Shown piece by piece: positions 44,201 through 47,200 of a DNA stretch of 64,000 nucleotides. The stretch's first letter is position 1, and each line of letters opens with the position of its first letter. The notes below the pieces were generated by a model, which saw only the letters and a list, made by a program, of their open reading frames with translations, ran no database searches and was not told the origin of the DNA. The position numbers and the translations under genes are program-made. Where the stretch lies: the NCBI RefSeq assembly GCF_009914755.1, contig NC_060930.1; one strand, 5' to 3'. The stretch comes from the human T2T-CHM13v2.0 reference genome, Homo sapiens.

Positions 44201-47200
44201 CTTGGCACCTTCTCCCCAGCCTGCTAACTAAACCATCTGTTTTTAAGCAGAACATATCACTTAATTAATTTGTTTCAGCAATTCTCCTCTCCCCAAAATG
44301 TTCAAGAAGTACTGTAAAATAGAGACAGTAAACATGTAGTGCGCTGCAGTTTAGGAGGAGAAGGGGAGAAACTGGGCCTCTTGTACACACCCAGAAAAAG
44401 CCAGAAGGAATACATTATAATGGCAAGTGATTATCTCTGGGTAATGACAATATGAGTGATTTTTTTTCATTATTTCCAGCATTTCTATAAAGAATGCACA
44501 TTTTGTGAAGAAAACATTATTGACATGGTAATTAGGAGGACTGTAACAGCACAGAAATAATTCATATGATGGAAAGGGGAATATATTTGATAATTTAACA
44601 TTTTGCTATCATTCCACCAACATTTTTAAGCATGTGTTTTATTCTACCTTACTGGTTTTGGTTCATGTTTTATTAAATGCAACCTAAAATGTTTACTTTT
44701 TTGTTACACTTCCTTTTAAAACATTGCCAACACTGTTTTAGTACAAGTTGATTTTTCCTAAAGGAAGAGTTAAGAAAATTCTGGGATGATTTGATAGTTG
44801 CTTGAAAGTTGTTTAGCCTTAGTTCACACTAATCTGTTTGGCCATCATTTATGGCTTAGTGAACTTCAGAAATGTTTATTGTAGATAATGCCATCCACCT
44901 GCAATTGCCTGAGGCATGAAGGTATTCTCTTCAGCTGGCCATTGCATTCCCTTTCCTAAAGAATTATTACATTTACATTATTCTGTTTAAGTATATTTTG
45001 TTTAAGATAATTTACTAATTAAAACCATTTGTCAGGGATAGCCGAACCTCTTAGAATCAAGTAAAATGCATTAGGGAAGCTCGTTGTTTTTTGTTTGTTT
45101 TTTGAGACAGAGTCTCGTTCTGTCACCCAGGCTGGAGTGCAGTGGTGTGATCTTGGCTCACTGCAAGCTCCACTTCCTGGGTTCACGCCATTCTCCTGCC
45201 TCAGCCTCATGAGTAGCTGGGACTACAGACGCCTGCCACCATGCCCGGCTAATTTTTTGTATTTTTAGTAGAGACGGGGTTTCACTGTGTTAGCCAGGAT
45301 GGTCTCGACCTCCTGACCTTGTATCCACCTGCCTTGGCCTCCCAAAGTGCTGGGATTACAGGTGTGAGCCACTGTGCCCAGCCAGGAAGCTCATTGTTTA
45401 ATAGACTTTATGGTGAATCCTTATATGAAACAAATAATTATTGTGTAAAAGTTGCCTTCAGATGAACATTGTAGATCAATCTATATTTTCACAAATCAGG
45501 TTTCTAATTTGCCGTTAAAGCAAGATATACGGAGGACAGAAAGTATTTAAGTACAGTTTAGTATTTTTGGTTGTGTAATTTAATAAAATATAAATTATTT
45601 ATTTTTCTTTTTCCAGCAAATTCTGCCCAGCTGGTTGTAGAGACGTTCTGCTCTACAGAGCAGAATGTACATAGGCTAGGTACATACGCTAGGTAATATG
45701 TACCCATGTACATGGGTTAAGTAATATGGCTTTCCAATATTTACATTTCAGTGAGACTTAGACTTCAAAATAGCTAGAAAATAAAAGTATAAATTGTACC
45801 ATCTGTTCAAAAGGGAATTTTCAAAAATCAGGTTCAATAAATGTGAATTTTAAAAATCAGTACCAAAAAAGTGACAAATAAACATCAATTTCCTTTAAGT
45901 TGGATGGATGAGGGAGTGACTATTTTAAAGAAAATAATCCTGGAAAATGCTGGTAATTTTATCATAATAATATGATAGTGAGACTTGATGGCTAGTCTTT
46001 TGGAGATGTATCCTATAGCCTACAATTAATATTAAAAGAAATGGCAAAACCCACAATTACTTTTGCATCAACCTATTATGGAAAGCCATAGCTGCAATTA
46101 AATAAAAATTTTATAAAAAAGGTATTCACCATTGAATTCCTTCAATACTGGGTACTGTGAGAAACGAGAATATTTGTTGGCCAATGATGCTGTTAGATCC
46201 TGTTGCTCGTTGGCCTGTGAACCTGTCATCTTACAGCCAAGGAGGCCCTGGGACATGCCAAGTCCAGTGAGAGCTCTCAATAGGCAGGGTTCCTAGTATG
46301 AAGACCGGGGATCCCAAGGACAGTGGGAATAGCTGCTCAGCAGACCACTGAACTGATCTGGTTTTCATTCTGGGGTTTAGCGAGGGAGACAGGCCTGCAT
46401 GGGTCCTATAATATAAACGGTGTACTGGGTACCCTTTAGAATCACAAGGTGACAGACCTTCAGAAAAGACACTAGACCAGCAGTCCCGAACCTTTTTGGC
46501 AACAGGGACCACTTTTGTGAAAGACAGTTTTTCCACAGACGGGGTGGGGGATGGTTTCAGGATGAAAGTGTTCCACCTCAGATCACCAGGAATTAGATTC
46601 TCATAAGGAGCACACAGCCTAGATTCCTCACATGCGCAGTTGTCAGTAGGATTTGCACCCCTGTGAGAATCTAATGCCTTTGCTGATCTGACAAGAGGTA
46701 GAGCTCAGGCGGTAATGTGTGCTTGCCCACTCCTCACCTCCTGCTGTGTGGCCCGGTTCCTAACAGGCCACTGACCAGTACCAGTCCACAGCCTGGGGGC
46801 TTGGGGACCCATGCACTAGACAACATCCAGTCCAGGCTTGTCATTGTCCAGAGGAATGGGAAGCCAGGTCAAGAGCAGTGGAATGACTTGCATATACTTT
46901 GTGGAGTTAGAGGCAAAGCCAGGATGACAAGATAAATTGCTAAATTTAAATTCAGGACTTTTCCTCTTCAACTGGCTCCTCTGTTTTGTTTGGACCCAGG
47001 AGTCCAAACTGATGATAAGAAAGCTTTTTAATGAAAGAAAATTCAGGAACAATATACAGAAAATTCAGGAAAGATGAAAAAGCAACCTGCATTCTTATTA
47101 AAGAGTACGATCTTTACGATCTTTTTCTCTTCTAATTTTAATTCTTTTTTTCCTCCAAGATTAGGGAGGGTAGTATTTGCATCTGTTTCAGTATTCTCAT

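What the first reader, a model, noticed from the sequence alone, without database searches (positions are those of the whole stretch)
45564..45700. Duplicated exon-5 splice acceptor creates a candidate poison pseudo-exon in intron 5
Seen: 45564-45646 is identical over 83 nt to 41554-41636, covering the upstream intron end, the pyrimidine tract, ttccag and the first 30 nt of exon 5. The upstream ~215 nt of the same duplication has about a dozen substitutions plus indels. A plausible donor, TAG|GTAATA, follows at 45692/45693, giving a 76-nt exon (45617-45692); a weaker TAG|GTACAT sits at 45679/45680. Spliced in place of exon 5 it reads [18 protein letters not shown] then TAG (45672-45674). Spliced after exon 5 it reads QILPSWL then TAG. 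Inference: either route gives a premature stop, so this could be an NMD-coupled dosage switch, a decoy acceptor, or an alternative end giving a CUB-only secreted peptide. The identical 83 nt could reflect constraint, gene conversion or chance. Short RNA-seq junction reads from exon 4 cannot tell the two acceptors apart for 30 nt, so usage could be systematically missed.
Basis: partly seen in the sequence, partly recalled or inferred. Interest (0 to 1): 0.8.

Follow-up and report, generated by a model that had tools for sequence, protein, structure and literature searches.

The report
Copied exon-5 splice acceptor in DCBLD1 intron
An old repair accident copied 300 bases, including the working splice acceptor of DCBLD1 exon 5, into the next intron; the copy looks like a mostly silent false exon rather than a proven gene-dosage switch.

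Summary

The duplicate is larger than reported. The 300 nt at 41337-41636 recur at 45049-45089 plus 45385-45646, split by an antisense Alu with a 15-nt target-site duplication. Only these two places exist in the genome.

The junctions point to one complex templated insertion. They carry a second, genome-unique 23-nt copy, a 7-nt filler and a 12-nt-arm palindrome.

The copied acceptor is strong by construction. Both candidate donors come from a 13-nt tandem repeat and are weaker than 12 of 13 annotated donors. They overlap three UAGG motifs and lie in predicted hairpins. RefSeq shows no exon there.

The 83-nt identity is only moderately unusual: P = 0.005 to 0.08 depending on the model.

Most likely this is a neutral relic acting as a silent or noise-level pseudo-exon. 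No RNA or primate data were available, so a regulated poison exon is neither shown nor excluded.

The parts
41337..41636 (+). Source segment: the last 270 nt of intron 4 plus the first 30 nt of exon 5.
   Evidence: Self-BLAST and alignment.
41607..41679 (+). Annotated exon 5 (73 nt). It lies just upstream of the LCCL-coding exon 6, between the CUB and LCCL matches.
   Evidence: Hub annotation. The open frame across the exons was confirmed. Exons 2-3 match CUB and exon 6 matches LCCL profile positions 46-86.
43956..43978 (+). The other copy of the 23-nt exact repeat; probable template.
   Evidence: The 23-mer occurs exactly only at these two places in the genome.
45019..45041 (+). 23-nt exact copy of 43956-43978. 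It lies 7 nt before the 5' junction of the 300-nt copy.
45042..45048 (+). 7-nt filler (CCGAACC) between the two templated pieces.
   Evidence: Read directly from the sequence.
45049..45089 (+). Copy B, part 1 (matches 41337-41377, 95%). Its last 15 nt are the left target-site duplication of the Alu.
45090..45384 (-). Antisense Alu (295 nt, T-rich start on the + strand, 6 CpG left) inserted into copy B.
   Evidence: Repeat family D1/D4/D5. Sub-threshold SRP-RNA matches on the - strand. TSD shown. CpG count.
45385..45646 (+). Copy B, part 2 (matches 41363-41636, 91.6% with gaps). Its first 15 nt are the right target-site duplication.
45564..45646 (+). The 83-nt block identical to 41554-41636. 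It holds the branch-point-like sites, the pyrimidine tract, the AG and 30 nt of exon 5.
45617..45692 (+). Candidate 76-nt pseudo-exon (63 nt if the donor at 45679/45680 is used). In-frame TAG at 45672-45674 on the exon-4 route and at 45638-45640 on the exon-5 route.
45643..45668 (+). Near-perfect palindrome at the 3' junction of the copy (12-nt arms, 92% complementary, 2 nt apart). It is predicted to form an 11-bp RNA hairpin.
45667..45695 (+). 13-nt tandem repeat, 2.2 copies. It creates both candidate donors and carries UAGG motifs at 45672, 45677 and 45690.
45780..45785 (+). First AATAAA downstream of the copied acceptor (others at 45836 and 45877). It would be needed for an alternative terminal exon.

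Best explanation
A single complex DNA-repair or replication accident in a primate ancestor copied 300 nt into intron 5, about 3.4 kb downstream of the source. The event was template switching of the MMBIR/FoSTeS or polymerase-theta end-joining kind. The copied piece is the end of DCBLD1 intron 4 plus the first 30 nt of exon 5. A 23-nt piece from about 1.06 kb upstream, a 7-nt filler and a fold-back palindrome came with it. An Alu later landed inside the copy.

The copy therefore holds a full-strength duplicate of the exon-5 acceptor but no matching exon body or good donor. It behaves as an intronic pseudo-exon. It is mostly ignored by the spliceosome under exon definition and yields at most noise-level transcripts that carry a premature stop and go to NMD.

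The 83-nt identity is explained by chance, constraint on the source copy, and possibly one gene-conversion tract. Selection on the copy is not needed.

Shown: the anatomy, the uniqueness in the genome, the reading frames, and the relative donor weakness. Inferred: the mechanism of origin, the age, and the silence of the pseudo-exon.
For: Anatomy and origin:
- The copy has two places only in the genome, so it is not an interspersed repeat.
- The flanks share no collinear homology, so it is not a simple tandem duplication.
- A 23-nt exact copy, found exactly at only two places genome-wide, lies 7 nt from the 5' junction.
- A palindrome spans the 3' junction.
- The copy has no poly-A tail or target-site duplication of its own (read).

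Age:
- The Alu with a 15-nt TSD lies inside the copy.
- One TSD difference at 45083 shows continued decay of copy B after the Alu arrived.
- Divergence is 13 of 205 aligned sites upstream.

Splicing signals:
- Donor U1-duplex energies are -6.5 and -5.5 kcal/mol. Each is weaker than 12 of 13 annotated donors, though -6.5 is in the top 4% of 376 intronic GTs.
- Three UAGG motifs fall in 21 nt against 0.25 expected in 79 nt. This is one of only two such clusters in 64 kb. The 1503 nt of annotated exons hold 2 UAGG.
- UAGG is a published hnRNP A1 silencer motif (PMC1079783, search listing and abstract start only).
- The local fold has z = -3.73, with the donors inside stems.
- No RefSeq exon lies in intron 5 in 10 transcripts (hub table).

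Identity run:
- P = 0.084 for any identical run of 83 nt or more, and 0.069 if copy A is fully constrained.
Against: The acceptor is among only 13 sites on the + strand of the window that are this pyrimidine-rich. It is one of 5 of those with a donor of -6.5 kcal/mol or better within 30-250 nt, and 2 of those 5 are real exons.

The donor lies within the range of working donors in this gene: exon 12 scores -4.2 and exons 3, 5 and 8 score -7.0 to -7.3.

The identical block falls exactly on the functional part of the copy. For that specific position P = 0.004-0.005 under uniform neutrality.

No RNA data and no outgroup were examined. U1-duplex energy and motif counts are crude stand-ins for MaxEntScan or SpliceAI.
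Confidence: 0.65

Rival explanations
1. It is a genuine poison exon. The copied acceptor and TAG|GTAATA are used in some tissues or conditions. Inclusion brings a premature stop, and NMD lowers DCBLD1 output. Regulation would most plausibly act through hnRNP A1/A2 binding to the UAGG cluster that overlaps the donors.
For: The acceptor is identical to a constitutive one over -53 to +30. There is a PTC in both routes. The donor is in the top 4% of intronic GTs. The identical block lies on the splice signals, with P = 0.005 for that position. A UAGG cluster could make use conditional rather than absent.
Against: The donor is weaker than 12 of 13 annotated donors. The donors lie in predicted stems. 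There is no RefSeq exon (hub table). No paper text pairs DCBLD1 with a cryptic exon, poison exon or NMD event in the gene. The searches gave 6 and 5 co-mentions, and none is on DCBLD1 splicing by title or abstract start. The one supplement file held for PMC11632617 does not mention DCBLD1. The copy is probably primate-specific, so it cannot be an ancient conserved switch.
Confidence: 0.15
2. It is a decoy acceptor. U2AF and U2 snRNP engage the copied 3' splice site without productive exon definition. This slows removal of intron 5 or promotes its retention, as proposed for decoy exons.
For: A strong acceptor is paired with poor donors. Intron 5 is 6.8 kb, and decoys were described for introns longer than 1 kb (PMC7373989 and PMC6097662, listing and abstract start only).
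Against: No data on intron 5 retention were available. Described decoys need both splice sites, according to the abstract start of PMC7373989. Nothing in the sequence distinguishes this from an inert pseudo-site.
Confidence: 0.07
3. It is an alternative terminal exon. Splicing from exon 4 or exon 5 to 45617, followed by cleavage after AATAAA at 45780, gives a stable mRNA for a secreted CUB-only protein.
For: Three AATAAA lie within 100 nt (45780, 45836, 45877), against one per about 850 nt in the intron. The stop would lie in the last exon, so the mRNA would escape NMD. The CUB domain is complete by the end of exon 3.
Against: No RefSeq transcript ends there (hub table). The surrounding sequence is AT-rich, so such hexamers may arise by chance (inference; local composition was not measured). 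No full-text co-mention of DCBLD1 with 'isoform' and 'truncated' concerns such a product (4 papers, none relevant by title).
Confidence: 0.03
4. The 83-nt identity comes from non-allelic gene conversion between the two direct copies rather than from chance or selection. This concerns the identity only and is compatible with a silent pseudo-exon.
For: The boundary is abrupt: two substitutions at 41551 and 41553 and a 9-nt indel lie just upstream, then 83 identical bases run to the end of homology. The copies are direct repeats about 4 kb apart in cis. P = 0.005 for such a terminal run under uniform decay.
Against: P rises to 0.07-0.08 once constraint on the source copy or the free choice of run position is allowed for. 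The homology is short (300 nt, about 94%).
Confidence: 0.3

Closest known systems
Intronic pseudo-exons (false exons): intronic stretches with splice-site-like signals that are normally not spliced
   Same: It has an acceptor-like and a donor-like site at exon-like spacing (76 nt) deep in an intron. It is not annotated as an exon. Its body carries silencer-type motifs. It would be activated only by mutation or loss of a repressor.
   Different: The acceptor is not a chance look-alike. It is a verbatim copy of the neighbouring constitutive acceptor with its branch region and 30 nt of exon.
Poison exons (cassette exons coupled to NMD, such as SCN1A 20N or those of SR protein genes)
   Same: It has cassette geometry and an in-frame stop with many junctions downstream.
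   Different: No evidence of inclusion, regulation or conservation was obtainable here. The donors are weak, and the element is probably young (about 6-7% divergence between the copies).
Tandem exon duplication giving mutually exclusive or unannotated duplicate exons (PMC9013439, PMC8373072; listing and abstract start only)
   Same: An exon-derived copy lies in the adjacent intron of the same gene, in the same orientation. Both lengths leave remainder 1 on division by 3 (73 and 76 nt).
   Different: Only 30 of 73 exon nucleotides were copied. The remainder is unrelated sequence with an in-frame stop. The flanks are not duplicated, so this is an insertional duplication, not a tandem one.
Complex templated insertions from template switching (MMBIR/FoSTeS; fold-back insertions at breaks; PMC8421209, PMC11724301, PMC6902434; listing and abstract start only)
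   Same: Two separate templates from within 4 kb (300 nt and 23 nt) are joined by a few untemplated bases. A short inverted duplication lies at one junction.
   Different: This is an old, apparently fixed germline event read from one genome. The empty ancestral site was not seen, so the order and unity of the steps are inferred.
Decoy exons that promote intron retention (PMC6097662, PMC7373989; listing and abstract start only)
   Same: Unproductive splice signals lie inside a long intron.
   Different: No retention data were available, and the donor is weak.

Membership tests
Poison exon (AS-NMD cassette) | Functional 3' splice site | tested here: met
   It is identical to the working exon-5 acceptor from -53 to +30, including the branch-point-like sites at -34 and -16. 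Function in the new context is inferred, not shown.
Poison exon (AS-NMD cassette) | Functional 5' splice site at exon-like distance | tested here: inconclusive
   TAG|GTAATA has a U1 duplex of -6.5 kcal/mol. That is the top 4% of 376 intronic GTs but weaker than 12 of 13 annotated donors. It overlaps UAGG motifs and predicted stems.
Poison exon (AS-NMD cassette) | Inclusion creates a premature stop upstream of later exon junctions | tested here: met
   TAG at 45672-45674 (exon-4 route) and TAG at 45638-45640 (exon-5 route). The exon junctions from exon 6 to exon 14 follow within the window.
Poison exon (AS-NMD cassette) | Inclusion seen in RNA and raised when NMD is blocked | not testable with these tools
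   No RNA-seq or junction data are held. RefSeq (hub table) has no such exon. Literature searches found nothing on it.
Poison exon (AS-NMD cassette) | Conservation or regulated use | not testable with these tools
   No primate genomes are held; one search states that the genome has no relatives here.
Intronic pseudo-exon | Splice-site-like signals at exon spacing, absent from annotated mRNAs | tested here: met
   The hub annotation lists no exon between 41680 and 48501.
Intronic pseudo-exon | Enrichment of silencer motifs | tested here: met
   Three UAGG in 21 nt against 0.25 expected in 79 nt. Their silencing effect here is inferred from the published motif (PMC1079783, listing only).
Tandem exon duplication / mutually exclusive exon pair | Whole exon copied, with a homologous open reading frame | tested here: not met
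   Homology ends 30 nt into the 73-nt exon and an in-frame stop follows.
Tandem exon duplication / mutually exclusive exon pair | Head-to-tail duplication of a genomic unit | tested here: not met
   There is no collinear homology between 41637-45048 and 45647-49500, or between 37500-41336 and 41637-45048.
Complex templated insertion (template switching) | Two or more inserted pieces copied from nearby templates | tested here: met
   300 nt from 3.7 kb upstream and 23 nt from 1.06 kb upstream. Each has only these two exact places genome-wide.
Complex templated insertion (template switching) | Junctions with short fillers, microhomology or fold-back copies, and no retrotransposition marks | tested here: met
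   A 7-nt filler and a 12-nt-arm palindrome across the 3' junction. The 300-nt copy has no poly-A tail and no TSD of its own.
Complex templated insertion (template switching) | Empty ancestral site in an outgroup | not testable with these tools
   No primate genomes are held.

The most novel reading that the evidence does not exclude
A catarrhine-specific poison or decoy exon was born in one step, when a template-switch insertion dropped a verbatim copy of a constitutive splice acceptor next to a UAGG-rich repeat. The copy's splice signals have since been kept identical to the source by selection or gene conversion. hnRNP A1-type repressors would then set how much DCBLD1 pre-mRNA is diverted to NMD.
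Probability: 0.07. Interest if true: 0.55.

Novelty: new member of a known kind. Interest (0 to 1): 0.3.

Why it matters
If the copy is silent, as seems most likely, it is a clear example of how a repair accident can plant a full-strength splice acceptor in an intron without harm. Exon definition still needs a donor and a permissive exon body.

It has practical uses for variant interpretation in DCBLD1, a locus the search listings link to lung, colorectal and head-and-neck cancer:
- A single change that improves the donor or destroys the UAGG motifs could activate a 76-nt exon carrying a stop.
- The two direct repeats could mediate a 4.0-kb deletion that removes most of exon 5.

If the copy is used, it would be a young, primate-specific unproductive-splicing switch with a known date and mode of birth.

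Tried and rejected
Rejected readings:
- Interspersed repeat family. Only two places match in the genome, and NCBI's file does not mask either copy (hub table).
- Simple tandem duplication. The flanks share no homology.
- A known RNA gene in the hairpin-rich region. All 6 Rfam matches at E of 1 or less in 44800-46200 lie inside the Alu and below their gathering scores. None lies in 45385-45800.
- Pairing between the copies. They are direct repeats, and no inverted pairs were found in 40000-47500.

Literature:
- DCBLD1 with 'splicing' gave 113 papers. The 25 listed are mostly lactylation reviews, and none is about this exon.
- DCBLD1 with 'cryptic' gave 6 papers and with 'nonsense-mediated' gave 5. 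None is on DCBLD1 splicing by title or abstract start.
- DCBLD1 with 'isoform' and 'truncated' gave 4 papers, none relevant.
- One search was badly designed. It required only 2 of 6 terms, and none of its 30 listed papers mentions DCBLD1.
- In PMC11955442, DCBLD1 appears only as a cited prognostic marker (passages read).
- The one supplement file held for PMC11632617 has no DCBLD1.

- Paper reading closed. The supplements of PMC11387194 and other unproductive-splicing catalogues were therefore not seen and may bear on usage.
- The search of earlier findings was not open.
- The Alu subfamily was not determined, because no consensus is held.
- MaxEntScan, SpliceAI and ESE/ESS tables are not available. 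U1-duplex energy and motif counts were used instead.
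Full report
**1. Observation**

The 83-nt identity is exact and maximal: 41554-41636 equals 45564-45646, with a mismatch on each side (sequence). 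It covers 53 nt of intron, including the pyrimidine tract and ttccag, plus the first 30 nt of DCBLD1 exon 5.

The annotated exons in the window give one open frame. Exon 4 ends in phase 2.
- Joined to exon 4, a 76-nt exon 45617-45692 reads ...[19 protein letters not shown], then TAG at 45672-45674.
- Joined after exon 5, it reads QILPSWL, then TAG at 45638-45640.
- Skipping exon 5 also shifts the frame.

**2. Full anatomy**

The duplicate is 300 nt, not about 300 nt ending at an Alu. The source 41337-41636 recurs as 45049-45089 plus 45385-45646.

The gap is an Alu at 45090-45384:
- It begins with a T-rich run on the + strand.
- It gives sub-threshold SRP-RNA matches on the - strand.
- It is flanked by a 15-nt target-site duplication at 45075-45089 and 45385-45399.
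- The right TSD copy and the source both have A where the left copy has G (45083), so that change arose in copy B after the Alu landed.

Outside the identical block, the copies differ by 13 substitutions (11 transitions, 2 transversions) and 2 indels over 205 aligned columns.

A 316-nt query from copy B finds only itself and the exon-5 region in the 3.1-Gb assembly. This is therefore a local duplication, not a repeat family. The source must be the exon-5 copy, because homology stops in mid-exon.

**3. How it arose (inferred)**

The sequences between and beyond the copies are not homologous, which excludes a plain tandem duplication.

Several junction features point to one event:
- Seven bases before the 5' junction lies a 23-nt exact copy (45019-45041) of 43956-43978.
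- This 23-mer occurs exactly only at these two places in the genome. There is one 2-mismatch hit elsewhere, and one hit for the reversed control.
- The two pieces are joined by CCGAACC.
- The 3' junction lies inside a palindrome at 45643-45668, with 12-nt arms, 92% complementarity and 2 nt between them.
- A 13-nt tandem repeat follows at 45667-45695, with 2.2 copies.
- The 300-nt copy has no poly-A tail and no TSD of its own.

Two nearby templates, a short filler and a fold-back copy are the published marks of template switching or templated insertion at breaks (PMC8421209, PMC11724301, PMC6902434; search listing and abstract starts only).

My own calculation from the counts gives a Kimura distance of about 0.067. 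With recalled neutral rates of 1-2.2e-9 per site per year, this suggests an origin roughly 15-35 million years ago. No outgroup was available to test it.

**4. Is the 83-nt identity special?**

- With all 15 differences placed at random, a terminal identical run of 83 nt or more has P = 0.005.
- Any run that long has P = 0.084.
- If the source copy cannot change there (splice signals and coding sequence), P(no change) = 0.069.

The block has one CpG, and its G+C content is like the rest of the copy. The identity is suggestive but does not demand selection on the copy. Gene conversion between the direct repeats is a fair alternative; I put it at about 0.3.

**5. Would it be spliced?**

Acceptor:
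- It equals a constitutive one by construction, including both branch-point-like sites at -34 and -16.
- It is one of only 13 + strand sites in the window with 17 or more of 19 pyrimidines, YAG, and no upstream AG.
- Five of those 13 have a donor of -6.5 kcal/mol or better within 30-250 nt.
- Two of the five are real exons (exons 2 and 5) and three are not (13598, 18968, 45617).

Donors:
- The U1-duplex energies are -6.5 kcal/mol for TAG|GTAATA and -5.5 for TAG|GTACAT.
- The 13 annotated donors range from -4.2 to -14.0, and 12 of the 13 are stronger than either candidate.
- The better candidate is still in the top 4% of 376 GTs in intron 5.
- Both donors are products of the 13-nt tandem repeat.
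- Each is the GU of a UAGGU.

Silencer motifs and structure:
- The last 21 nt of the pseudo-exon hold three UAGG motifs, against 0.25 expected in 79 nt.
- This is one of two such clusters in 64 kb. The 1503 nt of annotated exons hold two UAGG.
- UAGG is a described hnRNP A1-dependent silencer motif (PMC1079783; listing and abstract start only).
- The segment 45600-45720 folds at -39.6 kcal/mol (z = -3.73; 0 of 200 shuffles fold as well). An 11-bp hairpin sits in the exon body and the donors lie inside stems.

Annotation: the hub's RefSeq table lists no exon in 41680-48501 for any of 10 transcripts.

Taken together, the site has a strong acceptor, marginal and probably repressed donors, and no annotation. 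That is the profile of a pseudo-exon. None of this excludes low-level or conditional use.

**6. Consequences if it were used**

Exons 2-3 encode a complete CUB domain, and exon 6 matches LCCL profile positions 46-86. Any product would therefore be a CUB domain plus a short tail.

With exon 6 and later exons spliced on, the stop precedes many junctions, so NMD is expected from established rules.

An AATAAA at 45780, with two more within 100 nt, could in principle give a terminal exon that escapes NMD. The intron average is one AATAAA per about 850 nt. No transcript ending there is annotated.

**7. The mapping argument**

Only exon 4 to acceptor reads with 30 nt or less in the exon are ambiguous. 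The junctions from exon 5 into the copy, and from the pseudo-exon into exon 6, are unique. Ordinary RNA-seq would therefore reveal real use (inference).

**8. Literature**

No text in the held library links DCBLD1 to a cryptic exon, a poison exon or an NMD isoform:
- 113 papers, 25 listed.
- 6 papers.
- 5 papers.
- 4 papers.
- One search was poorly designed and returned nothing that mentions DCBLD1.

Passages of PMC11955442 mention DCBLD1 only as a marker. One supplement file of PMC11632617 lacks it. Paper reading closed, so other catalogues' supplements were not seen.

**9. Verdict**

This is a real and neatly dated partial exon-plus-acceptor duplication made by a complex templated insertion. 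It is most likely a silent or noise-level pseudo-exon (0.65).

It belongs to known kinds: pseudo-exon, partial exon duplication and templated insertion. Its interest is modest unless RNA data show use.

Noticed in passing
window 41337-41636 and 45049-45646: The two direct repeats, with an 83-nt perfect block 4,010 nt apart, could mediate unequal recombination. A deletion between them would remove most of exon 5 and leave the acceptor joined to the stop-bearing pseudo-exon tail. That is a predicted recurrent loss-of-function allele. It was not checked in any SV catalogue.
   Followed up: no
window 45780-45882: Three AATAAA hexamers (45780, 45836, 45877) lie within about 100 nt, just downstream of the copied acceptor. 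The window and intron 5 average one per about 850 nt.
   Followed up: partly
window 13598 and 18968 (+ strand): Two other unannotated sites in intron 1 have an acceptor as pyrimidine-rich as exon 5's and a donor with a U1 duplex of -6.5 kcal/mol or better within 250 nt (13792 and 19144). They are candidate pseudo-exons by the same crude test.
   Followed up: no
window 5698-5722: This is the only other cluster of three TAGG within 30 nt on the + strand of the window.
   Followed up: no
window 45702-45717: A perfect 16-nt palindrome, ACCCATGTACATGGGT, lies just after the candidate donors. A third loose copy of the GTACAT...GTAATATG motif is at 45708-45728. The native sequence beside the insertion is itself rich in small inverted and direct repeats, which may have made it break-prone.
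   Followed up: partly
window 40446-40748 and 45090-45384: Both Alus flanking exon 5 are in the same (antisense) orientation. They therefore cannot pair across exon 5, and no inverted repeats were found in 40000-47500.
   Followed up: yes
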